This document shows positions 1,011 to 20,540 of a DNA stretch of 64,000 bases, piece after piece. How positions within the stretch are numbered: the stretch's first letter is position 1; every line of letters begins with the position of its first letter. This DNA is from Pelagibacteraceae bacterium AG-422-B15 (GTDB lineage: Bacteria > Pseudomonadota > Alphaproteobacteria > Pelagibacterales > AG-422-B15), in the NCBI GenBank assembly GCA_003213715.1, contig QCMN01000002.1, positions 10,038-74,037 of the forward strand, given 5' to 3'. A program made the position numbers and the translations under genes. The notes beneath the pieces are model-generated. The model had not been told where the DNA came from. It did not search any database and saw nothing but the letters and a program-made list of their open reading frames with translations.

Positions 1011-1937
1011 CTATAATTGATTGAGCACTTTAATGTGTTCAACTGTAGTGCCGCAACATCCACCTATAATTTGCGCTCCTGCATCCTTCCACTTTTTTGC
1101 TTCAATTAAATAATCATCCGGAGAAATTACATTGCTCATGTCGTAGTGTGGAAAATTAAATACCGCTACTTCTGGATACGCCATAACAGGAAGGTCATAT
1201 ACTTCTTTAAGTTCTTTAATACTTTGTTCTATTACATTAATTTCACAATGCATTATTCCTACAGCATCCAATTTATGATGTTTCACATTACTAATCATTT
1301 TTTTAAAACTATAGTCATAGTCTGTAGTAAGGGCTATCAACCCGTCTTTATTTCTAGATGAGAATCCAGCCCACACAGGCAATCCAGCCTTACTTGCTGA
1401 ATCAAAAATTATTTCAATTCGGTCTGGTCGATACATTAACTCGAGTAGAATAAAATCACACCCATTATCAGCTAGAAAAAAAGCGAGCTCATCAAAAGAC
1501 TTTTGAAAATATTCGGGTGTGAGTTTTTTCTTAAATTTCTCTTTTTCCTCTTGTGTTTCAAAAGCATCTTCATATGGTATTTGATGAGATAAGGACCCAG
1601 CTATAAGTACATCATCTCTACCACATTCTTCCCTTGCTTCTAGAGCTGCATTTATCGCACTTAGATTTATTTCTTTAAATTGATTATCTACCCCTGCAGT
1701 TTCTAAGATCATCCGATTTGTTGCATAAGTATTAGTAGTTATAATACTTGAGCCAGCCTCAATATAATCTTTATGTATTTGTTTTAATGTATCGCTCTCT
1801 AAGGAGGCTGTACCACACCAAGAATTATCCATTTTAATACCACGGTTTTCAAGCTCCGAACCAGTGGCCCCGTCAAGAAGAATATTTTCTCCAGTATGAA
1901 TACGTTTCATTAAATTTTCGTATCTTTCGCTCATCAT
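1011..1937 (-). CDS. Homocysteine S-methyltransferase family protein (betaine- or S-methylmethionine-homocysteine methyltransferase candidate)
   Basis: C-terminal Zn-site motif IIGGCCGTTVEHI and N-terminal LLDGATGSELE are typical of the Pfam S-methyl_trans domain. It sits next to glycine-betaine catabolic genes. Confidence 0.75.
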   Translation of the reverse strand: MMSERYENLMKRIHTGENILLDGATGSELENRGIKMDNSWCGTASLESDTLKQIHKDYIEAGSSIITTNTYATNRMILETAGVDNQFKEINLSAINAALEAREECGRDDVLIAGSLSHQIPYEDAFETQEEKEKFKKKLTPEYFQKSFDELAFFLADNGCDFILLELMYRPDRIEIIFDSASKAGLPVWAGFSSRNKDGLIALTTDYDYSFKKMISNVKHHKLDAVGIMHCEINVIEQSIKELKEVYDLPVMAYPEVAVFNFPHYDMSNVISPDDYLIEAKKWKDAGAQIIGGCCGTTVEHIKVLNQL

Positions 1938-2042: not shown

Positions 2043-3179
2043 ATGTCAAAAGGTATCATATACACCCCAAGGATTAGAAAATCACCTTTCTTTGAAGAGA
2101 CACTAAAATATGGTGCTACCAATTTTACAACTTATAACCGTATGACGATGCCTGTTGGCTATACGACTCCTGAGGAGGAGTACCAATCATTAATAAACGA
2201 TGTAACATTATGGGATGTGGCAGCAGAGAGACAAATTGAAATTATTGGAGAGGACGCCGCTAAATTTGTTCAGTATATGACGCCAAGAAATCTATCAACT
2301 TTTAAAGATGGGTTTTGTCGTTACGCATTTATGACAGATGAAAATGGTGGAATCATAAATGATCCATTAATTTTAAAGTTTAATGATAATAAATATTGGC
2401 TAAGCATTGCAGATTCTGATGCAATATTGTGGTGCAAAGGCGTTGCTTTATCTGGTAAGTTTAATGTTAAAATTTCGGAGCCTGAAGCTTGTCCGCTTTC
2501 ATTGCAAGGCCCGCGCGCAAAAGAACTCATGAGAAAAGCTACAAATGATGATCCATTTATTATGGGATTAAAATATTATCAATTTATCGAAACTAACTTA
2601 TTTGGATTAGATATCATCATTGCACGCAGCGGTTGGAGTAATCAGTTTGGATACGAAATTTATATAACAAGAGAAGTAGATGGTCCGGCATTATGGAATG
2701 CATTAATGGAAGCAGGAAAAGAGTTTAAAATTGTACCAAGTTGTCCTAATCAAATAGATAGAATTGAAGCCGGTATGATTTCCCACCAAGGAGATACCTC
2801 ATTAGCTGAGAACCCTTTAGAACTAAACTTACCAAAATTTTATGATCTTGATCAAGAAGCGGACTTTGTAGGAAAAGATGCTCTCTTAAAAATAAGAGAA
2901 GAGGGCATTAAAAAACAATTCACTGGTTTTAAAATTTCAGGAAAGAAAATTGGTTATAATATGGCAAGAATACCATTGTTTGACAATAACTCTGAAAAAA
3001 AAGGATTTGTAACCAGCTGTATTTATAGCCCAAACTTTGGATGCAATATTGCCTTAGGGTTCATTGATATTGATTTAATTAATTCAGAAGAAGTTTATCA
3101 GATTGATCATGATGGAGAGAAACGAGAAGTTGAAGTTGTCCCTTTACCATTTAGTTCTAGACTCGAAAAAATGGAATAA
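2043..3179 (+). CDS. dmdA: GcvT-family aminomethyltransferase, DmdA-like (DMSP demethylase candidate)
   Basis: 378 aa. N-terminal RIRKSPFF...YNRM, VTLWDVAAERQIEI, ARSGWSNQFGYEIY and CPNQIDRIEAGM resemble my recollection of DmdA sequences and the GcvT fold. AAGGAG Shine-Dalgarno at 2031-2036. Confidence 0.55.
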   Translation: MSKGIIYTPRIRKSPFFEETLKYGATNFTTYNRMTMPVGYTTPEEEYQSLINDVTLWDVAAERQIEIIGEDAAKFVQYMTPRNLSTFKDGFCRYAFMTDENGGIINDPLILKFNDNKYWLSIADSDAILWCKGVALSGKFNVKISEPEACPLSLQGPRAKELMRKATNDDPFIMGLKYYQFIETNLFGLDIIIARSGWSNQFGYEIYITREVDGPALWNALMEAGKEFKIVPSCPNQIDRIEAGMISHQGDTSLAENPLELNLPKFYDLDQEADFVGKDALLKIREEGIKKQFTGFKISGKKIGYNMARIPLFDNNSEKKGFVTSCIYSPNFGCNIALGFIDIDLINSEEVYQIDHDGEKREVEVVPLPFSSRLEKME

Positions 3180-3829
3180 TGATTTCAAGAAGTAGAGTTA
3201 ATCAACTTTTATTCCTCTCAATAATTATATTAGCAGTCGTCGCTGGTTGGGCAGTTTCTGAATTATTTAGAGACAATACTTCAGAAGTATCAAATGATAT
3301 TGATTTAAAATTCACAGCAGTTGACCATTTTGGAGTTGATGTAAGTGAAAGAACTTACAGCGGATATAGTAAAGTATTCTTTTTTGGCTTTACTCATTGC
3401 CCAGATATTTGTCCAATTAGTGCAAATCTTATGAGTAATGCCATTGATCAATTAAATAGAGAAAACCATTCAATAGAAAATATAAAATTTTTCTTTGTAA
3501 CAGTTGATCCTGCTAGGGATAACCCTGACCGATTAAAAGAATTTCTTAGCAACTTTAGCAATAATTTAATTGGTTTAACGGGGACACATGAAAATCTTAT
3601 GCCAATATGGAAGGATTTTTTTGTACATGTAGAGCCGGCAACAAATTCAGAACATCAAAATTATCTAGGTACATCTGAACAATCTGATGAAATAAGTAAT
3701 AAAGAAAAAAATTACATGGTTCAACATACTGCTTTCTATTATATTTTTGATGATAATGATGTATTAAGAAGCATACTTCCCTTTGGTTCTAGTATTGAAC
3801 AAATGGTTGAAGATTTAAAAAATCTATAA
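3179..3829 (+). CDS. SCO1/SenC-family copper chaperone (thioredoxin fold), membrane anchored
   Basis: N-terminal TM anchor, FFFGFTHCPDICP (the CxxxC copper site) and a downstream conserved His (VQHTAFYY). The start overlaps the upstream stop (TAATG). Confidence 0.85.
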   Translation: MISRSRVNQLLFLSIIILAVVAGWAVSELFRDNTSEVSNDIDLKFTAVDHFGVDVSERTYSGYSKVFFFGFTHCPDICPISANLMSNAIDQLNRENHSIENIKFFFVTVDPARDNPDRLKEFLSNFSNNLIGLTGTHENLMPIWKDFFVHVEPATNSEHQNYLGTSEQSDEISNKEKNYMVQHTAFYYIFDDNDVLRSILPFGSSIEQMVEDLKNL

Positions 3830-3831
3830 CA

Positions 3832-4077
3832 ATGCATAAAATATCAATATTTATTTTTTTTATTTTATTGTGTTGTTCCGAAATAATAGAAACAAATAAA
3901 TATAGAGAATTGGCATCTGAACAAGCATCAAAAAAAAATTGTGATGCTAATGTTGAGCTTCTTTTAAAACATGAAAAGACTGAATTATGGGCATCTTATC
4001 ATAACAAAGATAAAAACTTATTATGCGTTTTAACTTGTGTTAACGATGTCTGTATGTTTTCGACAGAGAGAGATTAA
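3832..4077 (+). CDS. Small secreted Cys-rich hypothetical protein
   Basis: 81 aa with a hydrophobic N-terminal signal-like segment (ISIFIFFILLCC) and 7 Cys in total. It is tightly packed between SCO1 and PCuAC (2-3 nt gaps). I recognise no family. Confidence 0.45.
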   Translation: MHKISIFIFFILLCCSEIIETNKYRELASEQASKKNCDANVELLLKHEKTELWASYHNKDKNLLCVLTCVNDVCMFSTERD

Positions 4078-4080
4078 GGA

Positions 4081-4536
4081 TTGTATAAAGCACTAATAAT
4101 AATTTTGTTTTTAGTTTCTACAAAAATTGGAGCTGCTCACCAATTTCAAAAAGATCATATTAATATAAATCACCCACACATTAAGTTTGTAATTTCATCA
4201 GGCCCTGCAGCTGGATATATGAAAATAGTAAACATGGGTTTCGAGACAGATCGTTTAATTAAAGTTGTTACCAACTTTGCAGATACTGAGTTACATTATT
4301 CAAGTGTAGAGAATGGAATAGTTATAATGAGTAAAGTTGATTTTATTGAAATCCCTCCACAAAAAGCTAAATCGCTCAAACCCGGCACGCACCATATAAT
4401 ATTTTCAAATTTTAGTATTGAATTAACTCATGGAATAAGTTTAGAAGGGTCTTTAGTATTTGAAAATGCAGGCGAGATCAAAGTGCTTTTTGAGGTTGAA
4501 ACTCAAAAAAGTTTAGATGATCATACAGAACATTAA
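4081..4536 (+). CDS. PCu(A)C-type periplasmic copper chaperone (DUF461)
   Basis: TTG start preceded by TAAGGA. Signal peptide ends ...KIGAA/HQ. DUF461-like blocks AAGYMKIVN, ELHYSSVENGIVIMSKV and KPGTHHIIF. Confidence 0.7.
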   Translation: MYKALIIILFLVSTKIGAAHQFQKDHININHPHIKFVISSGPAAGYMKIVNMGFETDRLIKVVTNFADTELHYSSVENGIVIMSKVDFIEIPPQKAKSLKPGTHHIIFSNFSIELTHGISLEGSLVFENAGEIKVLFEVETQKSLDDHTEH

Positions 4537-5417
4537 TGAAAACATTTAAAATTGAATATATCACCACACTTTTTTTTCTCACCTTGCTAATTGCTTTAGC
4601 TTGGTACTATTTATTCCTCATGGCATCTAATCCAATGGACTCAATGATGCAAAATAAAAATCCAATGACAATGTCAATGGAAACCGCGTCAGAAAATGAA
4701 ATGTCAATGAACTCGATGTCTGATACAGAAATGACTATGGACTCAATGAATATGAATGAAAAAAACTCATCAATCAATTTTCTTATGATGCCAATGACAG
4801 GAAAGTGGACAATAAATGATTTTATCGTGATGTTCGTAATGTGGACCGTCATGATGTTTGCGATGATGCTTCCATCTACATTTATCTTTTTAAATATTTT
4901 TAGAATGATGAGATCGAATATGCAAATATCGTCGAATATTATTATTGAGATGATAGTGATTTCATTCACTTATATTTTAATTTGGACAATTTTTTCACTT
5001 ATTGCATGTACTCTTCAATATATTTTTCACAATAACGGAGTAGTCGATATGATGGGAACATTACAAAATAATATTCTTGCAGGATTATTTCTTGTTGGAG
5101 CAGGTGCATTTCAATTTACAAGTTTGAAAGATACATGTCTTGAGAAATGCAGAAACCCCTTATCGTTTCTAATGGCTGGTCCTATTAAAGGATACGGAAA
5201 TGTTGCCTATGTGGGTCTAAAGCATGGTTTATTTTGCTTAGGGTGTTGCTGGGTTCTTATGCTTCTGCTTTTTGTAAATGGAGTTATGAATTTACTTTGG
5301 GTTGTCGCAATAACAATAATTGTATTGGCTGAAAAAATGCTGCCTTACGAGAAACTTAGCTCTAGATTTCTGGGCATTCTTCTTGTAGGTTGGGGGGCGT
5401 ATTTAATACTTATTTAA
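4536..5417 (+). CDS. DUF2182-type predicted metal-binding integral membrane protein with a Met-rich loop
   Basis: 293 aa, polytopic. After TM1 there are 17 Met in residues 29-87 (MxM / EM[ST]M[ND]SM repeats). The downstream TM region (MWTVMMFAMMLP..., CLGCCW) fits the DUF2182 architecture, and it has the usual DUF1326 neighbour. Confidence 0.6.
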   Translation: MKTFKIEYITTLFFLTLLIALAWYYLFLMASNPMDSMMQNKNPMTMSMETASENEMSMNSMSDTEMTMDSMNMNEKNSSINFLMMPMTGKWTINDFIVMFVMWTVMMFAMMLPSTFIFLNIFRMMRSNMQISSNIIIEMIVISFTYILIWTIFSLIACTLQYIFHNNGVVDMMGTLQNNILAGLFLVGAGAFQFTSLKDTCLEKCRNPLSFLMAGPIKGYGNVAYVGLKHGLFCLGCCWVLMLLLFVNGVMNLLWVVAITIIVLAEKMLPYEKLSSRFLGILLVGWGAYLILI

Positions 5418-5421
5418 CTAT

Positions 5422-6102
5422 ATGACTGTAAATCCACTAAACTTACATTGGGAAATAAAAGGAAATTTTTTGCTGAATTGTAACTGCGATGTATTTTGCA
5501 ATTGTCCGATGTCCCTGGGGAGAGCGGTTCCAAATTCACCAAATGGTAAATGCTTTTCATGGTGGGGAATTAATATCGAAGAAGGATACGCAGAAGAAAA
5601 GTGGTCTGGATTTAACCCTATCAAAAGAGAGTCTAAAGGAATTATGGATTTAAGTGGTTTAAATGTTGCTATTCTTTTAGAAGTTCCTGGCCCTTTAGGT
5701 TCAGGCGGTTGGACAGCAGGATTATATATTGATGAAAAAGCATCTGATGATGCAGCTGATGCGCTCGCAGTTATTTTCTCAGGTCAAGCAGGTGGACAAA
5801 CAGGTTGGTTTAGACATATGATTGCAAACTTCCTTGGCGTAAAAAGATGTTCTATATCATATAAAGAAACCGACGATGGATGGTCGTTTACAATTCCAGA
5901 AATCTTAGATGGTCGAATTGAACATGAGCCAGGAAAAGAGAGAGGCGAAGTAGTAAAAGTATCAAACTTAAAATATTGGGTTGCGCCAGAAATAATTGTT
6001 TGCAAAGGATCAAAAAGAAGTAGGATTAGAGATCACGGCCGTAATTGGGATTTCACAGGTGGAAGTGCCGAATATTGTGCTGTTGATTGGGCCGGACCAT
6101 AA
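5422..6102 (+). CDS. DUF1326-type protein with an N-terminal Cys cluster (predicted cytoplasmic)
   Basis: 226 aa, no signal peptide, CxCx3CxC cluster (NCNCDVFCNCP). The position immediately after DUF2182 matches the pairing I recall for these two families. Confidence 0.55.
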   Translation: MTVNPLNLHWEIKGNFLLNCNCDVFCNCPMSLGRAVPNSPNGKCFSWWGINIEEGYAEEKWSGFNPIKRESKGIMDLSGLNVAILLEVPGPLGSGGWTAGLYIDEKASDDAADALAVIFSGQAGGQTGWFRHMIANFLGVKRCSISYKETDDGWSFTIPEILDGRIEHEPGKERGEVVKVSNLKYWVAPEIIVCKGSKRSRIRDHGRNWDFTGGSAEYCAVDWAGP

Positions 6103-6107
6103 TTCAT

Positions 6108-8543
6108 ATGAAAAACAAAGCTAAAGTTGTCGTCATCGGTGGCGGTGTAGTTGGAGTTAGTACGCTTTACCACCTTGCAAAAAAAGGATGGTCTGATGTA
6201 GTTTTGTGCGAACGCAAAGAACTTACATCAGGTTCGACGTGGCACGCTGCGGGTTTGATGCCTTTATTCAACATGAGTTACTCTGTTGGTCAAATCCATA
6301 AATACTCAGTTAAATTTTATCAAGAACTTGAAAAAGAAACTGGTCAAGATGTTGGCTTTAGGCAAGTAAGTAATATTCGACTTGCTGAAAACCAGGATAG
6401 AATGGATGAGTATCGTCAATATGCAGGTGTTGCAGAAACAATAGGTGTTAAAGTCAATTTTTTAACTCCCGAAGAAGTTCAAAAAGTTTGGCCGCTTTGT
6501 TCAACTGAGGGCTTAGTGGGTGCTATACAGCACCCTGAGGATGGATACATACAACCCAATGATCTTACGCAAGCTCTAGCAAAAGGAGCAAGAGCGCTTG
6601 GAGCTGAAATTTACAGACAAACAGCAGTCATAGGACTTGAACAGTTACCAGATGATAGTTGGATTGTTACAACTGATAAAGGTGAAATCAAATGTGATAT
6701 TGTTGTTTCATGCTCGGGAAATTTTGTCAGGCAAACCGGAGAAATGGTTGGATTAGATATCCCAGTGATACCTGTTGAGCATCAATATATCGTTACAGAA
6801 GCTCATCCTAAAATTCTAGAAAGACAAAAAGAAGGCCTTCCTGAAATGGGTGTACTTAGAGGATCTGACGGCGCATGGTATATGCGTGAGGAAGCTGGCG
6901 GATTAATTCTTGGACCATATGAAAATGGTGCACCATGTTGCTATGTCAATGGACCTAGCAAAGACTGTGAGTATGAATTATTCCAAGAAGACTTAGACAG
7001 ACTTGGCCCCCATATAGAGCATGCCATTCACAGAGTTCCTATTTTTGGAGAAGCAGGAATTAAGAAAGTTTATAATGGTGCTATTTGTTATACTCCAGAT
7101 GGAAGCCCAATTATCGGTCCAGCATGGGATAGAAAAAATTTATATTTAAATGACGGTCATTCGTTTGGCGTTACAGCTGCTGGTGGTGCAGGCTGGCAGA
7201 TCGCAGAATGGATTGTTGATGGCGAACCGACCATTGATATGCTCGGGGTTGAACCCAGAAGGTTTGGCGATTACGCATCAAAATCATATTTAATCAAAAA
7301 AAATGAAGAGGCTTATGCTAACGTTTTCACAATCCATTATCCTGATGAAGAAAGGCCCGCAGGCCGGCCATTAAGACAAGCTCCTTGTTATGATAGGCTG
7401 AAAAATTTAGGTGCAGTGTTTGGTCAAAAGTTTGGTTGGGAGCGCGCAAACTGGTTTGCTCCTGAAGGAGTTCCACAAGAAGATGATTGGTCATTCAGGC
7501 GATCAGCTTGGTTTGAGCACATTGGAAATGAATGTAAAAATGTAACAGAAAATGTAGGTCTTTTAGATATGACCGCATTTGCAAAATGTAGAATAAGCGG
7601 ACCAGGAGCAGAAGAATTCCTGGATAATTTAGTTGCTAATAAATTACCAAAAAAGATAGGAAGGACAAATCTCTGTCATGCTTTGAATTCTAAAGGAGGA
7701 GTACACTCAGAATTTACAATAATGAGAGAGTCTCATGACAGTTTTTATTGTGTTTCTGCTGGAGCTTGGCAGCGGATGGACCATGATTGGGTAAAAAAAC
7801 ATATGCCCGATGACAGAAGTGTAAAATTTGAAAATATTACAAATCAAATTGGAGTATTAGTTGTCGCTGGTCCGAAGTCGAGAGAACTTCTTCAAAGAGT
7901 ATCTGAGGATGATTTCACAAATGAGGGTTTCCCATGGCTATCTGGTAAAAAAGTAAAAATTGGTGCTGCAGAAACACTTGCAATAAGAGTAAATTTCGTT
8001 GGCGAATTAGGATGGGAAATCCACTCACCAATTGAAGTACAAAATCATATATTCGATACATTAATGGATGCAGGAAAAGATCTGGGTTTAAAGCCTTTTG
8101 GCATAAGAGCAATGGACTCTTTGAGAATTGAGAAATCCTACAAACTAATTGGTACAGAATTATCAATTGAATACGCAGGATATGAGTCAGGAATAGACAG
8201 GTTCATTCACCCAAACAAAGGTCAATTCATAGGAAGAGATGCATTAGTTCAGTGGAGAGAAAAAGGTTTTGAAAATTCCTTCGTAACTCTTGAAGTTCAT
8301 GGTGTCAAAGATGCTGATGTGCTTGGCAATAATCCAATATATGCTGATGGCAAAGTTATTGGTCGCGCTACAGGTGGAAATTTTGGCTTTCGAGTTAATA
8401 AGTCTCTCGCTTTAGCTATGGTCAATCCAGCTCATTCAGAAGTAGGCACAAAGTTAAAGATCGATATTTTGGGAGATATGTTTGATGTAACGGTAATACC
8501 CGAAAGTCCATACGATCCTGATAATCAGAAACTTAGATCTTAG
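6108..8543 (+). CDS. Dimethylglycine/sarcosine dehydrogenase family flavoprotein (FAD DAO domain + GcvT folate domain)
   Basis: MKNKAKVVVIGGGVVGVSTLYHLAKKG Rossmann motif. The C-terminal half carries GcvT-type blocks (LLDMTAFAKCRISGPGAEEFL). I prefer the ATG at 6108 to the TTG at 6087 in the ORF track, which overlaps the upstream gene. Confidence 0.8.
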   Translation: MKNKAKVVVIGGGVVGVSTLYHLAKKGWSDVVLCERKELTSGSTWHAAGLMPLFNMSYSVGQIHKYSVKFYQELEKETGQDVGFRQVSNIRLAENQDRMDEYRQYAGVAETIGVKVNFLTPEEVQKVWPLCSTEGLVGAIQHPEDGYIQPNDLTQALAKGARALGAEIYRQTAVIGLEQLPDDSWIVTTDKGEIKCDIVVSCSGNFVRQTGEMVGLDIPVIPVEHQYIVTEAHPKILERQKEGLPEMGVLRGSDGAWYMREEAGGLILGPYENGAPCCYVNGPSKDCEYELFQEDLDRLGPHIEHAIHRVPIFGEAGIKKVYNGAICYTPDGSPIIGPAWDRKNLYLNDGHSFGVTAAGGAGWQIAEWIVDGEPTIDMLGVEPRRFGDYASKSYLIKKNEEAYANVFTIHYPDEERPAGRPLRQAPCYDRLKNLGAVFGQKFGWERANWFAPEGVPQEDDWSFRRSAWFEHIGNECKNVTENVGLLDMTAFAKCRISGPGAEEFLDNLVANKLPKKIGRTNLCHALNSKGGVHSEFTIMRESHDSFYCVSAGAWQRMDHDWVKKHMPDDRSVKFENITNQIGVLVVAGPKSRELLQRVSEDDFTNEGFPWLSGKKVKIGAAETLAIRVNFVGELGWEIHSPIEVQNHIFDTLMDAGKDLGLKPFGIRAMDSLRIEKSYKLIGTELSIEYAGYESGIDRFIHPNKGQFIGRDALVQWREKGFENSFVTLEVHGVKDADVLGNNPIYADGKVIGRATGGNFGFRVNKSLALAMVNPAHSEVGTKLKIDILGDMFDVTVIPESPYDPDNQKLRS

Positions 8544-8555
8544 CTACTTGAAAAA

Positions 8556-9611
8556 GTGTCAGAAGCTTTAAAAGTTTACGAACAGCTCTGTAAAGATAAG
8601 CATATTGAACATAATATTAAGCAAAAAGATTTAGTTATTGAATTAGATAAATTTTTGTTAGGTTCGAGCGGAAATTTTATAAAAAAACTATTTCGATACA
8701 ATTTAAATCAAAAGAAATGCTTTTATTTATACGGGGGAGTGGGCATTGGAAAAACACTCATTATGGATTTATTCTATGATGACGTAAATTTAAAAGAAAA
8801 ACAAAGAGTCCATTTTCATGAGTTTATGATTGATATACATGATCAATTACACCAACTCAGAAATGAAAAAAATTCAAGAGATTTTATAATTTCAAAACTT
8901 GTAAAAGGCATTAAATCGAAATCAAGTCTCATATTTTTTGATGAATTCCAGGTCACAAATATAGCTGACGCAATGATTCTCGGGCATTTATTTGAGGAAT
9001 TCTTTAAAAATAATATTTTAATTGTATTAACTTCTAATTCCAGCCCAGAAGACTTATACAAAGAAGGGCTGCAAAGAGAACTTTTTATTCCATTTATTAA
9101 TTTAATTAAAAATAACTCTCTAATTCATCATCTATCAATAGACATTGATTATAGAACAAGATCATTAAAAGAAGAAAAGAACTTTTTTTTATCAAATTCA
9201 CCGGTTAGCAAGCTTAAAATAAATGATATTTTTTCTATCCATTCAAATAAAACTTCAGTCGAGGATAAAGTAATAAGTGTGAAGAAGAGAAATTTTGTTG
9301 TTAAGAATTTGTCTAATAGAATAGCTCGTTTTCAATTCAATGAAATTTGTGGCGATAACAGAGGCACTGAAGACTACCTCGAGTTAATTAAATTAATTGA
9401 TAGATTAATCGTTGAAAATGTTCCAAATTTTGGAAATACAAATTCTAATCTTCAAGAAAGATTTATTAATTTAATTGATGTTCTCTATGATAATAAAATT
9501 AAATTATATTTAAGCACAGAAAAAGAAATAAGCGATCTTGGCAGTGCATATCATTTGAAAGATAAATTTAACAGAACCATAAGCAGACTTCTAGAAATGA
9601 AATCACAATAG
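8556..9611 (+). CDS. zapE: AFG1/ZapE-family ATPase
   Basis: GTG start. Walker A is LYGGVGIGKT and Walker B is LIFFDEFQV. Size of about 350 aa is typical of ZapE. Confidence 0.75.
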   Translation: MSEALKVYEQLCKDKHIEHNIKQKDLVIELDKFLLGSSGNFIKKLFRYNLNQKKCFYLYGGVGIGKTLIMDLFYDDVNLKEKQRVHFHEFMIDIHDQLHQLRNEKNSRDFIISKLVKGIKSKSSLIFFDEFQVTNIADAMILGHLFEEFFKNNILIVLTSNSSPEDLYKEGLQRELFIPFINLIKNNSLIHHLSIDIDYRTRSLKEEKNFFLSNSPVSKLKINDIFSIHSNKTSVEDKVISVKKRNFVVKNLSNRIARFQFNEICGDNRGTEDYLELIKLIDRLIVENVPNFGNTNSNLQERFINLIDVLYDNKIKLYLSTEKEISDLGSAYHLKDKFNRTISRLLEMKSQ

Positions 9612-9617
9612 TTACAA

Positions 9618-10853
9618 ATGAAAATAGCAGTAATAGGAGCGGGAATTGTTGGCATTTCTTCAGCTAATTGGCTTAAGAAGTACGGTCAAGATGTGACCTT
9701 GTATGACATGAATGATCCTGGATCACAGGCAAGTTACGGCAATGCTGGAACTTATGCAAAATATGCAAATATACCAACTAATTCATCATCCTATTTTTAT
9801 TTATTTCCATATTTATTGCTAAACAAAAACAGCCCCTTATTCATTAGCCTAAAACGATTAAGCGAGACATTTCCATGGATTATTAAATACTTGAGCAATT
9901 GCAGAAATGAAAAAGTTAACCACACCGTTCAACATTTAACAACTTTACTGTCACATATGGATGATGGTTATGAAGATCTATTCAACGAAGCAAATGCAGA
10001 AGATTATATATCAAGAGAGTCTATCATGTATGGATGGTCTACAAAATTATTTTTTAATGCTGCAAAACAAGATTTTCCTAAAAGAGAAGAAACAGGTGTT
10101 AAAATAACAACTCTAAGTCGAGATGATATTTCTGATCTTGAACCTAATATTAATAATATCTTTTACAAAGGGGCCTTATTTGAAGGTAGTTATTTTGCAA
10201 AAAGTCCGATCAAGGTTAGCGAAGCATTAATGAAACTGTTTATTAAAAAAGGAGGAAAATTCAAAAAAGAGAAAGTTATATCCATCAAAAAAACTGAAAC
10301 TAATCAAATAAATATTAAAACAAACTCAGAAGAGACCCTGCACGATAGAGTCGTGATTACATCTGGAGTATGGTCTAATGATCTGCTTAAACATATAGGC
10401 GACAAAGTGCCACTGGAAGCTGAAAGGGGTTACCATTTAGTCAATCCAGAATTGAAGAATATTGTAAAAAGACCAATATCTTGGCAAGAACGAGGAACAT
10501 ATTTTACACCTATGTCTGACGGTCTAAGAACGGGTGGAATTGTTGAATTTGGAGCTTTAAATGAAACAAAAAATGAAAGAGTTCTTAACTTTTTAAACCG
10601 AGCATTAAAGGAAGTTTTTCCCTTAGCAGACCTTCCTCAAAAAACATGGGTAGGGTTTAGGCCGTCGGTGCCTGACTCTCTTCCAGTGATTGGACAATCT
10701 CCAAAAAACCCTTATATTTATTATAATTTTGGCCATCAACATATTGGGTGGTCATTAGGTGGCATATCAGGAAAACTGGTTGCACAACAAATTTGCGCAA
10801 ACAATACAGATTTAGATTTGTCACCGTATTCTGTAAAGAGGTTTAAGTTATGA
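9618..10853 (+). CDS. FAD-dependent oxidoreductase, DAO/DadA-like
   Basis: MKIAVIGAGIVGISSANWLKKYG dinucleotide fold. 411 aa. The stop overlaps the soxB start (ATGA). Confidence 0.7.
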   Translation: MKIAVIGAGIVGISSANWLKKYGQDVTLYDMNDPGSQASYGNAGTYAKYANIPTNSSSYFYLFPYLLLNKNSPLFISLKRLSETFPWIIKYLSNCRNEKVNHTVQHLTTLLSHMDDGYEDLFNEANAEDYISRESIMYGWSTKLFFNAAKQDFPKREETGVKITTLSRDDISDLEPNINNIFYKGALFEGSYFAKSPIKVSEALMKLFIKKGGKFKKEKVISIKKTETNQINIKTNSEETLHDRVVITSGVWSNDLLKHIGDKVPLEAERGYHLVNPELKNIVKRPISWQERGTYFTPMSDGLRTGGIVEFGALNETKNERVLNFLNRALKEVFPLADLPQKTWVGFRPSVPDSLPVIGQSPKNPYIYYNFGHQHIGWSLGGISGKLVAQQICANNTDLDLSPYSVKRFKL

Positions 10854-12091
10854 AATACTCACTATACAATTTAGTTAAGAATTCATTTTCTTATCATGAG
10901 AATTGGGAAAAAGCATGGAGCAGTCCTGATCTTAAACCTGAATATGATGTAGTAATAGTTGGAGGTGGCGGTCATGGATTAGGAACTGCCTATTACCTAG
11001 CAAAAGAATTTGGTGTTAAAAATATTGCTGTTCTTGAGAAGGGATGGATTGGTGGGGGTAATACTGGACGTAACACAACCATAATAAGATCAAATTACTT
11101 ATGGGATGAAAGTGCAGCTCTTTATAATCATGCTGTTAATTTATGGGAAGGCCTTTCTAGTGAGCTTAACTTTAATGTAATGTTTTCACAAAGAGGTTTA
11201 TTTCACTTAGCGCACTCGGTTCATGACATGCAAGAAATCACAAGGAGAGGTTATTCTAATTATTTAAATGGTATTGACGCTGAAATTCTAAATCAGGATC
11301 AAGTTGCAAAAAAAATACCTCATATTAATGTTAATGGCAGGTATCCTGTTTTAGGGGCCTTACTTCAGAGGCGAGCAGGAACAGCGCGTCATGATGCTGT
11401 AGCATGGGGGTATGCACGAGCGGCAGAAAATCTTGGTGTCGATATAATTCAAAACTGTGAGGTTAAAGGAATAGATATATCAAATGGCAAGGTTGTTGGA
11501 TTACAAACAACAAAAGGTTCTGTTAAAGTTGATAAAGTTGGTCTCGTACCTGCTGGACACTCCTCAGTATTAGCTAATATGGCAGGTTTTTCTCTCCCAA
11601 TAAACTCTGTACCCTTACAGGCTTTAGTAAGCGAGCCTGTTAAACCAATTCTGGATTGTGTCATCATGTCAAACTCCGTTCATGTTTATGTAAGTCAATC
11701 AGATAAAGGTGAACTAGTTGTTGGAGCAGGTTCTGATGCCTATAACTCATATTCTCAGCGAGGATCCTTTGATATGATTGAACATATGATGGCTCCCTTA
11801 GTTGAATTATTTCCAATATTCTCAAGACTTAAAATGCTTCGCAGCTGGGGAGGCATTGTAGATGTAACCCCAGATAGAAGCCCAATAATAGGCAAGACCC
11901 CTGTAAAAGACTTATTTATTAACTGCGGTTGGGGAACTGGGGGATTCAAAGCAACTCCAGGGTCAGCTCATGTATTTGCTGAGACAGTTTTTAGAGGAGA
12001 GCCAAATGATATTGCAGCTCCTTTTTCATTAGAAAGACATTTCTCAGGAGCCTTAGTTGATGAAGCTGCAGCGGCAGCAGTTGCTCATTAA
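10850..12091 (+). CDS. soxB: Heterotetrameric sarcosine oxidase, beta subunit
   Basis: DVVIVGGGGHGLGTAYYLAKEFG. 413 aa, followed by delta/alpha/gamma-sized genes in the canonical soxBDAG order. Confidence 0.85.
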   Translation: MKYSLYNLVKNSFSYHENWEKAWSSPDLKPEYDVVIVGGGGHGLGTAYYLAKEFGVKNIAVLEKGWIGGGNTGRNTTIIRSNYLWDESAALYNHAVNLWEGLSSELNFNVMFSQRGLFHLAHSVHDMQEITRRGYSNYLNGIDAEILNQDQVAKKIPHINVNGRYPVLGALLQRRAGTARHDAVAWGYARAAENLGVDIIQNCEVKGIDISNGKVVGLQTTKGSVKVDKVGLVPAGHSSVLANMAGFSLPINSVPLQALVSEPVKPILDCVIMSNSVHVYVSQSDKGELVVGAGSDAYNSYSQRGSFDMIEHMMAPLVELFPIFSRLKMLRSWGGIVDVTPDRSPIIGKTPVKDLFINCGWGTGGFKATPGSAHVFAETVFRGEPNDIAAPFSLERHFSGALVDEAAAAAVAH

Positions 12092-15967: not shown

Positions 15968-16315
15968 GTGAAAGTATCATTATTACTTGCTTTATCTCGA
16001 TCAGTTTTTAAAAAATGCCCGCAATGCGGAGAAGAAAAAATTTATAAGCAATATTTGAAACTAAAGCCTAATTGCAATAATTGTAATGAAAAGCTTTCAA
16101 TTTATAGAACGGATGATTTTGGTCCTTGGCTTACAATTATTATTGTTGGACACATCATTGTTCCTTTAGTTTTATATATAGAACAAAACTATTCACCTCA
16201 GTTATGGTTGCAGGCAATTACATGGATACCAATTACAATAATGACTGTGCTTTATATGCTTCCGATATCAAAAAGTATATGCCTGGCTATATTATGGAGC
16301 TTAAGGGATAAATAA
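15968..16315 (+). CDS. DUF983-type small membrane protein with a zinc ribbon
   Basis: GTG start. CPQCGE...CNNCNE followed by DDFGPWLTIIIVGHIIVPL and two TM helices. Confidence 0.6.
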   Translation: MKVSLLLALSRSVFKKCPQCGEEKIYKQYLKLKPNCNNCNEKLSIYRTDDFGPWLTIIIVGHIIVPLVLYIEQNYSPQLWLQAITWIPITIMTVLYMLPISKSICLAILWSLRDK

Positions 16316-18279: not shown

Positions 18280-19230
18280 ATGAAAGCAATAGGATACAAC
18301 TCATACGGAGATATTGATAATCTTGAAATTTTAGAGGTTGCTGAGCCAAGACCTAAAAGATCAGAAGTAATTGTAAAGATCGAGGCCGTATCGCTTAATC
18401 CAGTTGATATCAAAAAAATGCAAGGTGGATTTAAGCCCATAACCAATCTGAATAAATTTCCTATATTCACTGCCTGTGATTTCAGTGGTGAAATTACTGA
18501 AATTGGAAGAGATGTAGGAGCTTTTAAAGTTGGTGATAAAGTATTTGGTATGACAGATATATTATTCAATGGAAGTGCCGCAGAAAAAATTAAAATTTCT
18601 CAAAAGTTAATTTCACTTGTACCAAAAAATATCAAGTTGCACGAAGCGAGTGCCATTCCTCAAGTAGCAAACACATCGTTGCTAGCATTGCGAAATATTG
18701 CCTCAATTCGAAAGGGACACAAGATCTTAATTAATGGTGCATCCGGAGGAGTGGGTTCTTTTGCAATTCAAATGGCAAAAATATATGAAACAGAAATAAC
18801 TGCGGTAACAAGTGATAGAAATTACGAATGGATTAAAAATGATTTTAATATAGATGACGTAGTTGATTATACAAAAGAAGATATTTTATCTTCATCAAAA
18901 AAATATGATATCGTTTTTGACGCAAATGGAAATCTATCTTTTCCCAACGCATCAAAAATATTGTCGGCTAACGGTATATATGTGACTACAAAAAATAATA
19001 TCTACAATAATATAGATGTGGCAAAACAACTGTTTCAAAGAAAAAAATCAAGAGTTGTATTATCTGGCAGAACATCAACTGCAAATTTAGATTTATTTAG
19101 AATGTGGATTGAAGATGGAAAGATTAAGCCCATCATCGAAAAAATATTTTCTTTTGATCAATATCTTGATGCTTATAATCATCTCAAAAGTGGTCGCGCA
19201 AAAGGCAAAATACTTTTAACCTTTAATTAA
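18280..19230 (+). CDS. Medium-chain dehydrogenase/reductase, NADPH:quinone oxidoreductase-like
   Basis: GroES-like N-terminus (VKIEAVSLNPVD) and the cofactor fold GASGGVGSFAIQMAK. Confidence 0.7.
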   Translation: MKAIGYNSYGDIDNLEILEVAEPRPKRSEVIVKIEAVSLNPVDIKKMQGGFKPITNLNKFPIFTACDFSGEITEIGRDVGAFKVGDKVFGMTDILFNGSAAEKIKISQKLISLVPKNIKLHEASAIPQVANTSLLALRNIASIRKGHKILINGASGGVGSFAIQMAKIYETEITAVTSDRNYEWIKNDFNIDDVVDYTKEDILSSSKKYDIVFDANGNLSFPNASKILSANGIYVTTKNNIYNNIDVAKQLFQRKKSRVVLSGRTSTANLDLFRMWIEDGKIKPIIEKIFSFDQYLDAYNHLKSGRAKGKILLTFN

Positions 19231-19233
19231 AAT

Positions 19234-20070: not shown

Positions 20071-20078
20071 GGAAAAAT

Positions 20079-20540
20079 ATGAGTATTTATGACATTGAAG
20101 TAAAAGACATTGATATGAACTCTATCAAAATGGAAAAATTCAAGGGAAAAACTCTATTAATTGTAAACGTAGCAAGTGCTTGTGGTTTTACACCACAATA
20201 TACTGGCTTACAAAATCTCTATGATAAATATAAAGACAAAGGGTTAGAAATTTTAGCATTTCCCTGTAATCAATTTGGCGCCCAAGAAAAAGGGACGAAT
20301 GAAGAAATAAAAGATTTTTGTGACACAAAGTATAATGTATCCTTTCGTCTGTTTGATAAGATTGATGTTAATGGAGAAAATGCATCACCTCTTTTTGTTA
20401 AGCTTACTGAAGAAGCAGGCAGAGAGATACAGTGGAATTTTACAAAGTTTTTAATCAATAAAGAAGGTGAATTTGTTAGAGGTTTTGGTACACAAAAAAA
20501 ACCTGAAGAGATTGAAGAGCATATAAAAGCTATTATTTAA
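20079..20540 (+). CDS. Glutathione peroxidase (Cys type)
   Basis: VNVASACGFT (catalytic Cys), FPCNQFGAQE and WNFTKFLI. Confidence 0.9.
   Translation: MSIYDIEVKDIDMNSIKMEKFKGKTLLIVNVASACGFTPQYTGLQNLYDKYKDKGLEILAFPCNQFGAQEKGTNEEIKDFCDTKYNVSFRLFDKIDVNGENASPLFVKLTEEAGREIQWNFTKFLINKEGEFVRGFGTQKKPEEIEEHIKAII

What the first reader, a model, noticed from the sequence alone, without database searches (positions are those of the whole stretch)
3179..6102. Uncharacterised five-gene copper-type module (SCO1 / 81-aa Cys-rich / PCuAC / Met-rich DUF2182 / Cys-cluster DUF1326) wired into a methyl-oxidation operon
What the sequence shows:
- Five consecutive same-strand genes sit between the DmdA-like gene and the dimethylglycine-dehydrogenase-like gene, with junctions ranging from a 1-nt overlap to a 5-nt gap.
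- SCO1 carries a CxxxC site.
- An orphan secreted protein has 7 Cys.
- A DUF461/PCuAC protein has a signal peptide.
- A polytopic membrane protein has a 17-Met loop.
- A protein with no signal peptide has a CxCx3CxC cluster.

What is established: SCO1 and PCuAC are periplasmic Cu(I) chaperones for CuA-site assembly. I recall DUF2182 and DUF1326 as a recurrent gene pair with no experimentally assigned function.

Inference: the arrangement reads like a complete relay. Periplasmic chaperones would hand metal to a Met-rich capture loop, then to a membrane conduit (DUF2182), then to a cytoplasmic thiol-rich acceptor (DUF1326). This would be a candidate copper (or other soft-metal) uptake or delivery system, co-expressed with flavoenzymes that feed electrons into the respiratory chain. 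Nothing in the demethylation enzymes themselves is known to need copper, so the linkage is unexplained.
Basis: partly seen in the sequence, partly recalled or inferred. Interest (0 to 1): 0.78.

Follow-up and report, generated by a model that had tools for sequence, protein, structure and literature searches.

The report
SAR11 DmdE/DmdF pair with copper chaperones
An abundant marine SAR11 bacterium carries, inside its methyl-group-oxidation operon, the recently named DmdE/DmdF gene pair (reported absent from SAR11) fused to three periplasmic copper-handling genes, which suggests a testable idea: the pair may work with copper.

Summary
The five genes are real, intact and tightly packed. Pfam assigns four of them: SCO1, PCuAC, PF09948 and DUF1326. 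The fifth is an 81-aa lipoprotein found only in SAR11.

The module is no longer uncharacterised:
- PF09948 (formerly DUF2182) is now named PpoB2, a copper chaperone for a Marinomonas tyrosinase.
- Fu et al. (EMBO J 2026) named DUF2182 and DUF1326 DmdE and DmdF. [quoted passage not shown] Purified DmdF has peroxidase activity.

That paper states SAR11 lacks dmdEF. Here, 44 Pelagibacterales species representatives carry the pair or DmdF alone, always with SCO1 and always just upstream of the dimethylglycine dehydrogenase gene.

In 37 loci from other phyla, the PpoB2–DUF1326 pair is never near SCO1 or PCuAC. In 12 of them it lies next to, or within about 3 kb of, DmdA-like or homocysteine S-methyltransferase genes. 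The copper-chaperone link is therefore SAR11-specific, while the methyl-metabolism link is general.

Best reading (about 0.42): periplasmic copper passes through the Met-rich loop and the Met/His/Cys residues of DmdE to a five-Cys site on cytoplasmic DmdF, a redox enzyme that protects methyl oxidation.

Rivals: a cytochrome oxidase assembly unit parked here, or a thiol-redox relay.

Verdict: a new variant of a known kind.

The parts
1011..1937 (-). Homocysteine S-methyltransferase-family gene, divergent from the operon (context). Relatives of it sit directly next to PpoB2-DUF1326 pairs in other phyla.
   Evidence: Pfam S-methyl_trans 170 bits. NCBIfam hits are below cut-offs. It is 32-36% identical to neighbours of the pair in L073, L077, L079 and L086.
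2043..3179 (+). DmdA-like GcvT-family aminomethyltransferase (378 aa). It is a paralogue of SAR11 DmdA, and its substrate is not established.
   Evidence: Pfam GCV_T plus GCV_T_C. NCBIfam DmdA model 351 bits against a cut-off of 410. 276 bits to the P. ubique DmdA structure 3TFH. 37% identical to a Roseobacter DmdA. 40-44% identical to the DmdA-like neighbours of the pair in Acidobacteriota and others.
3179..3829 (+). SCO1/SenC-family protein with an N-terminal membrane anchor and a periplasmic thioredoxin-like domain. The CxxxC motif and His183 are present.
   Evidence: PF02630 118.9 bits. CPDIC aligns with CPDVC of human SCO1. CxxxC and H183 are conserved in 43 of 44 SAR11 sequences; the exception is a frameshifted assembly. 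TM segment at residues 9-27. Present in every SAR11 variant of the module.
3832..4077 (+). 81-aa lipoprotein restricted to SAR11, with four conserved Cys after the lipidated Cys.
   Evidence: No Pfam or NCBIfam hit. Lipobox L-S/A-C-S-E. Invariant C15, C37, C65, C69 and C74 in 29 unique sequences. An exhaustive HMMER search of 1.84 billion representatives found only 8 short relatives.
4081..4536 (+). Periplasmic PCuAC copper chaperone. It has an N-terminal histidine-brace motif (H20-x10-H31) and the canonical site H72-x10-M83-x21-H105-x-(M107; Ile in this copy).
   Evidence: PF04314 63.1 bits. Best solved relatives are 6P1G/6P1F and PmoF1, the PCuAC domains of methanotrophs; mature H20 aligns with their first residue. 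H20, H31, M47, M83 and H105 are invariant in 38 SAR11 sequences, and 32 of 38 carry the full canonical motif. Absent from 6 plus 4 of the 44 SAR11 loci.
4536..5417 (+). PpoB2/DUF2182 (DmdE-like) polytopic membrane protein.
   Evidence: PF09948 184 bits. 33% identical to the DmdE homologue of Antarctobacter. Invariant across 70 sequences from several phyla: M102, W103, M106, M107, M110, M111, P113; C201, C205, R206, P208; H230, C234, C237, C238, W239, M242. AF2 model pLDDT 73.6 with about 7 helices, and no fold match in the PDB.
4629..4811 (+). Met/Asp/Ser-rich loop of the membrane protein (residues 32-92), predicted periplasmic and disordered.
   Evidence: 16 Met, 8 Asp/Glu and 3 Lys/Arg. pLDDT below 50 for residues 35-86. 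Length and sequence vary strongly between SAR11 lineages (MDMDMSSMDM-type repeats; proteins of 259-314 aa), and the loop is short or absent outside SAR11.
5422..6102 (+). DUF1326 (DmdF-like) cytoplasmic protein with a five-Cys site on an acetoacetate-decarboxylase-like beta fold.
   Evidence: PF07040 125.7 bits. 43% identical over 96% of its length to the DUF1326 gene in the dmdR-dmdE-dmdF-dmdA-acuI locus of Antarctobacter. AF2 pLDDT 88.4, pTM 0.88. Foldseek hits acetoacetate decarboxylase, MppR and AttH at E about 2e-4, TM 0.4. It is the most conserved module protein among SAR11 variants, at 73-98%.
5479..5553 (+). Cys cluster C20-x-C22-x3-C26-x-C28 ... C44 of DUF1326.
   Evidence: Invariant in 36 homologues and in homologues only 24-30% identical from Ralstonia, Streptomyces and Bacillus.
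6108..8543 (+). Dimethylglycine dehydrogenase. It is the constant downstream partner of the module in all SAR11 variants.
   Evidence: Pfam DAO, FAO_M, GCV_T and GCV_T_C. E 2e-183 over the full length to rat and human DMGDH structures. It follows DUF1326 in every SAR11 locus, including those without the DmdA-like gene.
8556..9611 (+). AFG1/ZapE-family ATPase. It is conserved between DMGDH and the DAO/soxBDAG genes (context).
   Evidence: PF03969 286 bits and NCBIfam ZapE 328 bits. Same position in all SAR11 loci.

Best explanation
The module is the SAR11 form of the DmdE/DmdF system, extended on the periplasmic side by three copper-handling proteins. DmdE is a PpoB2-family membrane copper chaperone and DmdF is a five-Cys DUF1326 protein.

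Shown:
- The family memberships.
- Cu-ligand motifs conserved in SCO1, and in PCuAC except that this copy has Ile at M107.
- Cys, Met and His residues in the membrane protein that are invariant across phyla.
- The five invariant Cys of DUF1326.
- Fixed co-location with methyl-group-oxidation genes.

Inferred mechanism:
1. Copper in the periplasm is bound by PCuAC, SCO1 (perhaps kept reduced or assisted by the 4-Cys lipoprotein) and the Met-rich loop.
2. It moves through the Met cluster of TM2 and the His/Cys cluster of TM5 to the cytoplasmic CxxxC loop of the membrane protein.
3. It is loaded onto the Cys cluster of DUF1326, just as PpoB2 loads its operon partner tyrosinase.
4. Metallated DUF1326 then acts as a redox enzyme (peroxidase activity is reported for DmdF). 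It removes a toxic by-product of flavoenzyme- or THF-dependent demethylation of glycine betaine and DMSP-type substrates.
For: - Family assignments.
- PF09948 is curated as 'PpoB2 copper chaperone', and PpoB2 is needed for copper transfer to tyrosinase PpoB1 but not to another copper oxidase (PMC2855505).
- DmdE and DmdF are adjacent, operonic with dmdA and essential on DMSP. Deleting dmdA partly rescues the dmdE mutant. DmdF consumes H2O2. No cofactor was determined.
- The window proteins are 33% and 43% identical to the pair in a syntenic Roseobacter locus.
- SCO1 has CxxxC plus His; PCuAC has the His brace plus the canonical motif.
- The loop is Met-rich, acidic and predicted periplasmic, while the CxxxC loop is predicted cytoplasmic.
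- Met, His and Cys residues are invariant across phyla.
- Five Cys are invariant down to 24% identity.
- DUF1326 is as constrained as the neighbouring enzymes, whereas the envelope proteins evolve fast.
- The pair sits beside DmdA-like or homocysteine S-methyltransferase genes in 12 of 37 loci from other phyla.
Against: - Outside SAR11 the pair is never near SCO1 or PCuAC. The copper-chaperone link therefore rests on one lineage plus the PpoB2 precedent.
- Ten of the 44 SAR11 loci lack PCuAC. Four of those also lack the membrane protein, keeping only SCO1 and DUF1326 in different compartments. Hand-off through DmdE is therefore dispensable in some lineages.
- No metal has been measured in any DUF1326 protein.
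- The fold resembles enzymes with no metal site.
- The window's PCuAC copy has Ile at ligand position 107.
- The direction of transport is inferred only from ligand chemistry and topology rules.
Confidence: 0.42

Rival explanations
1. The module is two unrelated units sitting side by side. SCO1 with the lipoprotein and PCuAC would be the cell's ordinary CuA-assembly factors for the aa3 cytochrome c oxidase, parked in this operon by genome streamlining. DmdE/DmdF would do something else that need not involve copper.
For: - SCO1 and PCuAC are the canonical CuA chaperones (established knowledge), with motifs mostly intact.
- No second abundant SAR11 SCO1 appeared among the 120 best of 1544 SCO1 homologues. 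The two candidates checked were unrelated metal-resistance islands.
- SCO1 is retained even where the membrane protein is lost.
- The same operon holds an AFG1-family ATPase and a DUF983 protein. DUF983 has been called COX4-like. Mitochondrial Afg1 acting in oxidase subunit turnover is my own recollection.
- Outside SAR11 the pair has no copper chaperones nearby.
Against: - No cox gene or other cuproenzyme lies in the 64-kb window.
- The module is found in only about 44 Pelagibacterales species representatives. The Fu et al. survey of NCBI representative genomes found none, so it looks accessory, whereas oxidase assembly is universal.
- PCuAC and the lipoprotein lie between SCO1 and dmdE with 1-3 nt junctions, and they are lost or kept together with dmdE rather than with SCO1.
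- The Met-rich loop of DmdE is elaborated only in the lineage that has the periplasmic chaperones.
Confidence: 0.25
2. The module is a transmembrane thiol-disulfide (electron) relay rather than a metal conduit. Cytoplasmic DUF1326 would pass reducing equivalents through the Cys pairs of the membrane protein, in the manner of DsbD/CcdA. This would keep periplasmic SCO1 and the 4-Cys lipoprotein reduced. The H2O2 turnover of DmdF would be thiol-based.
For: - Every protein except PCuAC has conserved Cys pairs: SCO1 CxxxC; lipoprotein C65-x3-C69-x4-C74; membrane protein CxxxC and CxxCC; DUF1326 five Cys.
- SCO proteins are thioredoxin-fold and need reduction to bind copper (established knowledge).
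- DinB-family and redox-stress genes accompany the pair elsewhere.
Against: - The PpoB2 phenotype is described as copper transfer to tyrosinase.
- The invariant Met cluster in TM2 and the Met-rich loop have no role in a thiol relay.
- The membrane-protein model has no structural similarity to DsbD/CcdA or to any solved fold.
- The pair mostly occurs without any periplasmic thiol partner.
Confidence: 0.1
3. The flow runs the other way, or the role is protective. DUF1326 would sequester cytoplasmic copper (or another thiophilic metal), and the membrane protein would export it to PCuAC/SCO1. This would protect metal-sensitive demethylation enzymes, or cope with thiols such as methanethiol that bind copper.
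For: - CxC-rich clusters are typical of Cu(I)-thiolate storage and buffering proteins (my recollection of metallothionein and Mac1/Ace1-type motifs, not tested).
- Zn-dependent homocysteine S-methyltransferases are recurrent neighbours.
- A precedent for SCO1 in DMSP-linked metabolism is the copper-dependent methanethiol oxidase operon mtoX-SCO1-mauG (PMC5739008).
Against: - Surface-ocean copper is scarce, and a streamlined oligotroph is unlikely to keep a five-gene efflux set here (inference).
- Met-rich outward-facing loops are typical of uptake or capture (recollection of Ctr1).
- DUF1326 has an enzyme-like fold and a reported catalytic activity.
- No mtoX-like gene is in the window.
Confidence: 0.1

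Closest known systems
DmdE/DmdF of Roseobacters (Ruegeria lacuscaerulensis; Fu et al., EMBO J 2026, PMC12992908)
   Same: - The same two Pfam families in the same order (DUF2182 then DUF1326).
- Adjacent and co-oriented with a DmdA-family demethylase gene.
- 33% and 43% identity to the syntenic pair in Antarctobacter.
- The identity and coverage part of the paper's homologue criteria (at least 30% identity, at least 70% coverage) is met for DUF1326 against that syntenic homologue. The hmmsearch E-value part was not run, and the 33% match of the DUF2182 protein spans only about 69% of the window protein because of its Met-rich loop.
   Different: - The organism is SAR11, from which the paper reports the genes absent.
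- No dmdR (GntR), acuI or dinB gene is nearby.
- The neighbour is a sub-threshold DmdA paralogue, and the fixed partner is DMGDH.
- SCO1, a lipoprotein and PCuAC are added upstream, and the Met-rich loop is greatly expanded.
PpoB1/PpoB2 of Marinomonas mediterranea (tyrosinase plus its membrane copper chaperone; PMC2855505)
   Same: - The membrane protein belongs to the same Pfam family, which is named after PpoB2.
- The logic is the same: a polytopic membrane protein encoded next to the soluble protein it is proposed to metallate.
   Different: - The partner is DUF1326, not a tyrosinase.
- Copper transfer has not been shown for any DmdE-type member.
- I could not align the PpoB2 sequence itself, so conservation of the Met/His/Cys motifs in PpoB2 rests only on the Pfam model match over positions 1-187 of 188.
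Copper delivery route for cytochrome oxidases in Rhodobacter and Bradyrhizobium (CcoA importer, CopZ, CcoI, SenC/ScoI, PccA/PcuC)
   Same: It uses SCO1 and PCuAC as periplasmic partners, plus a membrane protein with Met/His motifs for copper passage (PMC6362234).
   Different: - The membrane protein here is not an MFS transporter or a P-type ATPase and has no solved structural relative.
- No oxidase genes are nearby.
- The presumed acceptor is cytoplasmic.
PmoF1/PmoF2 histidine-brace PCuAC domains of methanotrophs (PDB 6P16, 6P1F, 6P1G; Fisher et al. 2019, cited in PMC10952591)
   Same: They are the best solved matches. The mature N-terminal His and a second His 11 residues on align with theirs and are invariant in SAR11.
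   Different: - The SAR11 proteins mostly also keep the canonical H(M)X10MX21HXM site.
- The operon context is methyl-group oxidation, not methane monooxygenase.
- Copper binding was not tested.
mtoX-SCO1-mauG operon (copper-dependent methanethiol oxidase; PMC5739008)
   Same: A SCO1 gene is embedded in an operon of the DMSP/C1-sulfur pathway and proposed to metallate a pathway enzyme.
   Different: No SBP56/MtoX or MauG gene is present here. The proposed client is cytoplasmic DUF1326.

Membership tests
SCO1/SenC (PF02630) | Profile match above the curated cut-off | tested here: met
   118.9 bits against a cut-off of 22.8. E 2e-19 to human SCO1 structures.
SCO1/SenC (PF02630) | CxxxC plus distal His copper ligands | tested here: met
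   C74-PDI-C78 aligns with CPDVC of human SCO1. C74, C78 and H183 are conserved in 43 of 44 SAR11 sequences.
SCO1/SenC (PF02630) | Role in CuA-site assembly of cytochrome c oxidase | not testable with these tools
   No cox genes in the window.
PCuAC (PF04314) | Profile match above the curated cut-off, and a secretion signal | tested here: met
   63.1 bits against 29.4. Hydrophobic N-terminus ending GAA before H20.
PCuAC (PF04314) | Canonical Cu(I) motif H(M)X10MX21HXM | tested here: inconclusive
   The window copy has H72, M83 and H105 but Ile at position 107. 32 of 38 unique SAR11 relatives have all four ligands.
Histidine-brace PCuAC (PmoF type) | Mature N-terminal His plus a second His (H-x10-H) | tested here: met
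   H20-x10-H31 aligns with residues 1 and 12 of 6P1F and is invariant in 38 of 38 sequences. This is at sequence level only; the cleavage site is predicted.
PpoB2 / DUF2182 / DmdE (PF09948) | Profile match and a polytopic membrane architecture | tested here: met
   184 bits against 28.7, covering model positions 1-187 of 188. Hydropathy and the AF2 model show about 7 helices.
PpoB2 / DUF2182 / DmdE (PF09948) | Copper transfer to the operon partner | not testable with these tools
   Known only for M. mediterranea PpoB2.
DmdE/DmdF system (Fu et al. 2026) | DUF2182 and DUF1326 genes adjacent and co-oriented next to a DmdA-family gene | tested here: met
   The same layout occurs in Antarctobacter.
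DmdE/DmdF system (Fu et al. 2026) | At least 30% identity and 70% coverage to reference proteins (the paper's criterion) | tested here: inconclusive
   DUF1326: 43% identity over 96% of its length. DUF2182: 33% identity, but the aligned stretch is only about 69% of the 293-aa window protein (about 76% of the 250-aa Antarctobacter protein), because the Met-rich loop does not align. The comparison was to a syntenic Antarctobacter pair, not to the R. lacuscaerulensis references, which I did not have.
DmdE/DmdF system (Fu et al. 2026) | Control by DmdR (GntR) and linkage to acuI/dinB | tested here: not met
   No GntR, MDR-oxidoreductase or DinB gene flanks the module in the window or in L001-L057.
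DUF1326 / DmdF (PF07040) | Profile match and the CxCx3CxC...C motif | tested here: met
   125.7 bits against 25. The five Cys are invariant in alignments A1 and A2.
DUF1326 / DmdF (PF07040) | Peroxidase activity | not testable with these tools
   Reported for the R. lacuscaerulensis protein only.
DmdA (NCBIfam NF009133 equivalog), for the flanking gene 2043-3179 | Score at or above the equivalog cut-off | tested here: not met
   351 bits against 410. Only 276 bits to the P. ubique DmdA structure 3TFH.
Dimethylglycine dehydrogenase, for the flanking gene 6108-8543 | DAO, FAO_M, GCV_T and GCV_T_C architecture with a full-length match to solved DMGDH | tested here: met
   (E 2e-183).

The most novel reading that the evidence does not exclude
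DmdE/DmdF would be a copper-dependent system. DmdF would be a previously unrecognised kind of cytoplasmic Cu-thiolate redox enzyme on an acetoacetate-decarboxylase-like fold, metallated by a PpoB2-type membrane importer. In SAR11, the largest marine pool of DMSP and glycine-betaine demethylation genes, a dedicated periplasmic chaperone set (SCO1, an orphan lipoprotein, a His-brace PCuAC) would feed it. Methyl-group oxidation in part of the ocean's most abundant bacteria would then depend on copper supply.
Probability: 0.25. Interest if true: 0.8.

Novelty: new variant of a known kind. Interest (0 to 1): 0.6.

Why it matters
DmdE and DmdF were shown in 2026 to be essential for the main marine route of DMSP breakdown. 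DmdE has no assigned function, and DmdF has an activity but no known cofactor. That paper does not mention copper, cysteine or any metal analysis.

The SAR11 module puts three recognised copper-handling genes in translationally tight series with the pair. Together with the PpoB2 precedent, this turns 'what do DmdE/F do?' into a concrete, testable copper hypothesis.

It also corrects the published statement that SAR11 lacks these genes. The exact DUF1326 protein of this window is recorded in 3504 blocks of the public collection, and the module is in at least 44 Pelagibacterales species representatives. This affects estimates of who carries the system in the ocean.

Across phyla the pair is repeatedly found beside DmdA-like and homocysteine S-methyltransferase genes. 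Its role therefore seems tied to methyl-group catabolism in general, not to Roseobacter DMSP regulation alone.

Tried and rejected
1. I first took the organism for freshwater LD12, because of sample names and 1.2-1.4 Mb contigs. I rejected this when the genome scan gave 100% matches in marine Pelagibacteraceae single-cell genomes.

2. I first mis-registered the PCuAC motif and noted that Phe36 replaced a ligand. A regular-expression check located the canonical motif at H72/M83/H105/M107.

3. I looked for a second, housekeeping SCO1 of SAR11. The top 120 of 1544 homologues held only module-linked SAR11 proteins and unrelated ones. Two candidates (P0227, P0194) were the same non-SAR11 metal-resistance island. 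The question remains unresolved.

4. Two contig look-ups with window proteins (AlaRS, photolyase) found no exact match. I annotated the window with Pfam instead.

5. Sequence searches of solved structures with DUF1326 and the membrane protein found nothing. The fold search with the membrane-protein model also found nothing significant.

6. Rfam and tRNA scans of the window found nothing, so there is no riboswitch upstream of the operon at gathering thresholds.

7. The promoter scan was uninformative, with fewer hits than in shuffled sequence.

8. The cupin at 49466-49990 was checked as a possible DddK DMSP lyase. There was no match to DddK structures.

9. I did not run the metagenome scan. Its best 80 hits would all be near-identical copies of this abundant clade.

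Full report
**What is there**

The window is low-GC DNA, about 30-40%. It comes from a marine Pelagibacteraceae (SAR11) genome.
- The DUF1326 protein it encodes is found, residue for residue, on 1.16-1.41 Mb contigs and in 3504 blocks of the public collection.
- The species-representative scan returns 100% matches in 'uncultured Pelagibacteraceae bacterium' single-cell genomes.

Between a GcvT-family gene (2043-3179) and a dimethylglycine dehydrogenase gene (6108-8543; E 2e-183 to rat and human DMGDH) lie five co-oriented ORFs. Their junctions run from -1 to +5 nt. No + strand terminator-like site occurs from 2446 to 12070.

Pfam assigns four of them:
- SCO1-SenC, 118.9 bits.
- PCuAC, 63.1 bits.
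- PF09948, 184 bits.
- DUF1326, 125.7 bits.

The 81-aa ORF matches nothing in Pfam or NCBIfam. The only slips are 6 Cys rather than 7 in the small protein, and 16-18 Met rather than 17 in the loop.

**The individual proteins**

SCO1
- It has an N-terminal anchor (residues 9-27).
- Its CPDIC motif aligns with CPDVC of human SCO1.
- The distal His183 is conserved with the CxxxC in 43 of 44 SAR11 sequences. The exception comes from a frameshift-ridden assembly.

The 81-aa protein
- It is a lipoprotein with lipobox L-S/A-C-S-E.
- Four further Cys are invariant (C37, C65, C69, C74), and the C-terminus STERD is largely conserved.
- An exhaustive HMMER search of 1.84 billion representative proteins found only eight short relatives. 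It is therefore a lineage-restricted orphan.

PCuAC
- Its best solved relatives are the methanotroph PCuAC domains 6P1G/6P1F and PmoF1. These are described as histidine-brace copper binders (PMC10952591).
- The predicted mature N-terminus is H20, and H20-x10-H31 aligns with their residues 1 and 12. Both His are invariant in 38 of 38 SAR11 sequences.
- The canonical H(M)X10MX21HXM site is also present at H72/M83/H105/M107 in 32 of 38 sequences. The window's own copy is the only one with Ile at 107.

The membrane protein
- It has about seven helices.
- The loop at residues 32-92 is disordered, acidic and Met-rich. The positive-inside rule places it in the periplasm.
- The loop is hypervariable among SAR11 lineages (MDMDMSSMDM-type repeats; proteins of 259-314 aa). 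It is short or absent in other phyla.
- Invariant across 70 sequences from several phyla:
  - a Met cluster in TM2 (M102, W103, M106, M107, M110, M111, P113);
  - C201-x3-C205-R-x-P in a Lys/Arg-rich, hence cytoplasmic, loop;
  - H230, C234, C237, C238, W239 and M242 in TM5.
- Its model has no structural relative in the PDB.

DUF1326
- It has no hydrophobic segment.
- Five Cys are invariant (C20, C22, C26, C28, C44) in 36 homologues. They also hold in proteins from Ralstonia, Streptomyces and Bacillus that are only 24-30% identical.
- A confident model (pLDDT 88.4, pTM 0.88) most resembles acetoacetate decarboxylase, MppR and AttH (E about 2e-4, TM about 0.4). That is an enzyme-type beta-cone, not a classic metallochaperone fold.

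**What is already known**

The module is not uncharacterised.
- PF09948 is now named 'PpoB2, copper chaperone'. The name comes from the Marinomonas mediterranea protein that transfers copper specifically to its operon partner, tyrosinase PpoB1 (PMC2855505).
- Fu et al. (EMBO J 2026, PMC12992908) named DUF2182 and DUF1326 DmdE and DmdF. In Roseobacters they found:
  - the two genes are always adjacent and operonic with dmdA-acuI under DmdR;
  - mutants cannot grow on DMSP;
  - deleting dmdA partly rescues the dmdE mutant;
  - purified DmdF consumes H2O2.
- That paper assigns no function to DmdE. It never mentions copper, cysteine or a metal analysis.
- It states twice that SAR11 lacks dmdE and dmdF.

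A Roseobacter plasmid locus shows exactly the published layout: GntR, DUF2182, DUF1326, DMSP demethylase, MDR oxidoreductase (Antarctobacter heliothermus). The window proteins are 33% (DmdE) and 43% (DmdF, 96% coverage) identical to that pair. For DmdF this clears the identity and coverage part of the paper's homologue thresholds; the DmdE match spans only about 69% of the window protein, because its Met-rich loop does not align. The comparison is to the Antarctobacter pair, not to the paper's own reference sequences.

**Distribution and neighbourhoods**

The single scan of 185,579 species representatives found 152 stretches encoding DUF1326 relatives. The best 80 were kept.

SAR11 loci. Forty-four of the 80 are Pelagibacterales:
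- 31-32 have the five-gene order.
- 6 lack PCuAC (SCO1-lipoprotein-DmdE-DmdF).
- 4 have only SCO1-DmdF.
- 2 are truncated too far to classify.

Metagenome contigs add further variants:
- one without the DmdA-like gene;
- polar ones with only SCO1-DmdF.

In every SAR11 variant SCO1 and DmdF are present. The module sits immediately upstream of DMGDH-AFG1-DAO-soxBDAG.

Among SAR11 variants, conservation splits into two groups:

| Group | Protein | Identity to window |
|---|---|---|
| Cytoplasmic enzymes | DmdF | 73-98% |
| Cytoplasmic enzymes | DMGDH | 85-96% |
| Cytoplasmic enzymes | DmdA-like | 67-90% |
| Envelope proteins | SCO1 | 39-73% |
| Envelope proteins | lipoprotein | 50-66% |
| Envelope proteins | PCuAC | 44-65% |
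| Envelope proteins | DmdE | 51-71% |

Non-SAR11 loci. There are 37: 36 of the 80 scan loci, plus locus L011. They come from Entotheonella, Myxococcota, Acidobacteriota, Chloroflexota and others.
- The DmdE-DmdF pair is adjacent in 34 of them.
- No SCO1, PCuAC or lipoprotein homologue lies within 6 kb of any, even with filters off (best E 0.33).
- The annotated Roseobacter, Ralstonia, Streptomyces and Bacillus loci have none either.
- Twelve of the 37 loci do have one of two gene types immediately beside the pair or within about 3 kb:
  - a DmdA-like gene, scoring 350-362 bits on the DmdA model (the same sub-threshold class as the window's 351 bits) and 40-44% identical to it;
  - a homocysteine S-methyltransferase, 32-36% identical to the window's divergent gene at 1011-1937.
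- Acyl-CoA ligase and crotonyl-CoA carboxylase/reductase genes also recur.

The link to methyl-group catabolism is therefore general. The link to periplasmic copper chaperones is specific to SAR11.

**Most likely mechanism**

I read the module as DmdE/DmdF with a SAR11-specific periplasmic copper front end.

The steps that are shown: the family memberships; ligand motifs conserved in SCO1, and in PCuAC apart from Ile at position 107 in this copy; invariant soft-metal residues arranged from the periplasmic to the cytoplasmic side of DmdE; a family-defining Cys cluster on DmdF; and the fixed genomic association.

The steps that are inferred:
1. Cu is captured by PCuAC, SCO1 and the Met-rich loop.
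2. It passes through the TM2 Met cluster and the TM5 His/Cys cluster to the cytoplasmic CxxxC.
3. It is loaded onto the DmdF Cys cluster, as PpoB2 loads tyrosinase.
4. Metallated DmdF is the redox catalyst whose H2O2 turnover Fu et al. observed. It removes a toxic by-product of demethylation.

The weak points:
- The copper context exists in one lineage only.
- Some SAR11 keep SCO1 and DmdF without DmdE, although the two are predicted to lie in different compartments.
- No metal has been measured.

**Rival explanations**
- SCO1/PCuAC may simply be the cell's cytochrome-oxidase assembly factors parked here.
  - For: I could not find a second SAR11 SCO1. The operon also holds an AFG1-family ATPase, and a DUF983 protein that has been called COX4-like.
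  - Against: no cox gene is in the 64-kb window, and the module looks accessory rather than universal in SAR11.
- The module may be a thiol-disulfide relay.
- The flow may be outward, or the role protective.

**Novelty**

Each component family is known and the pair was named in 2026, so this is not categorically new. Three things are new:
- The pair is present in SAR11, contrary to the published statement.
- It is fused with SCO1, an orphan lipoprotein and a His-brace PCuAC, and the Met loop is expanded.
- The pair recurs across phyla beside DmdA-like and homocysteine S-methyltransferase genes.

Together these give a concrete copper hypothesis for two proteins that matter for marine sulfur and carbon cycling and whose mechanism is open.

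Noticed in passing
window 8556-9611: An AFG1/ZapE-family ATPase gene is wedged between DMGDH and the DAO/soxBDAG genes in every SAR11 locus examined. Mitochondrial Afg1 is linked to turnover of cytochrome oxidase subunits (my recollection). That is curious next to SCO1 and PCuAC.
   Followed up: partly
window 15968-16315: A DUF983 gene directly follows soxG. This family has been proposed to be COX4-like and occurs in COX operons of alphaproteobacteria (PMC4013037). It is a second oxidase-related hint in the same long operon.
   Followed up: partly
window 18280-21117: A run of redox-stress-type genes lies just downstream of the methyl-oxidation operon: zinc-type quinone oxidoreductase, pirin, glutathione peroxidase and nitroreductase.
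   Followed up: no
window 4399-4401 (PCuAC codon 107): The window's PCuAC has Ile where 37 of 38 SAR11 relatives have the copper-ligand Met107. This may be a strain variant or a sequencing error.
   Followed up: partly
window 4629-4811 and L032, L037, L040, L041, L050, L097, L099: The Met-rich loop of the membrane protein is a length-polymorphic, repeat-like region (MxMSM or MDMDMSS units). It differs between otherwise close SAR11 lineages.
   Followed up: partly
L007-L010, L049, L054-L056: Some SAR11 (Fram Strait and other contigs) keep only SCO1 and DUF1326 between the DmdA-like gene and DMGDH. The gap between them is 56-58 bp, with no remnant of the three missing genes.
   Followed up: partly
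L011, L058, L060, L061: In Entotheonella-type loci the pair follows a CMD-family gene and a molybdopterin oxidoreductase. EgtB-like (DinB_2/FGE-sulfatase) and EgtD-like methyltransferase genes follow it, i.e. an ergothioneine-type thiol context.
   Followed up: no
L101, L102, L103: In the Ralstonia, Streptomyces and Bacillus replicons DUF1326 comes first. A DUF2182 gene follows it in Streptomyces and Bacillus; in Ralstonia the next gene is annotated only as hypothetical. No methyl-metabolism or copper gene is nearby. The family therefore has at least two context types.
   Followed up: partly
window 31283-40484: Two tandem AcrB-type RND pump genes lie together with a membrane-fusion protein, a PadR regulator and an outer-membrane factor. 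This is large for a streamlined genome.
   Followed up: no
window 52793-53608: A Der/EngA-like GTPase of only 271 aa has one G domain plus the KH-like domain. Der proteins normally have two G domains (my recollection).
   Followed up: no
L003, L004, L006, L025: Several long-read or single-cell assemblies show split genes in this region: GcvT, AFG1, soxB, and the SCO1 CxxxC in L006. These look like assembly frameshifts rather than real pseudogenes.
   Followed up: no
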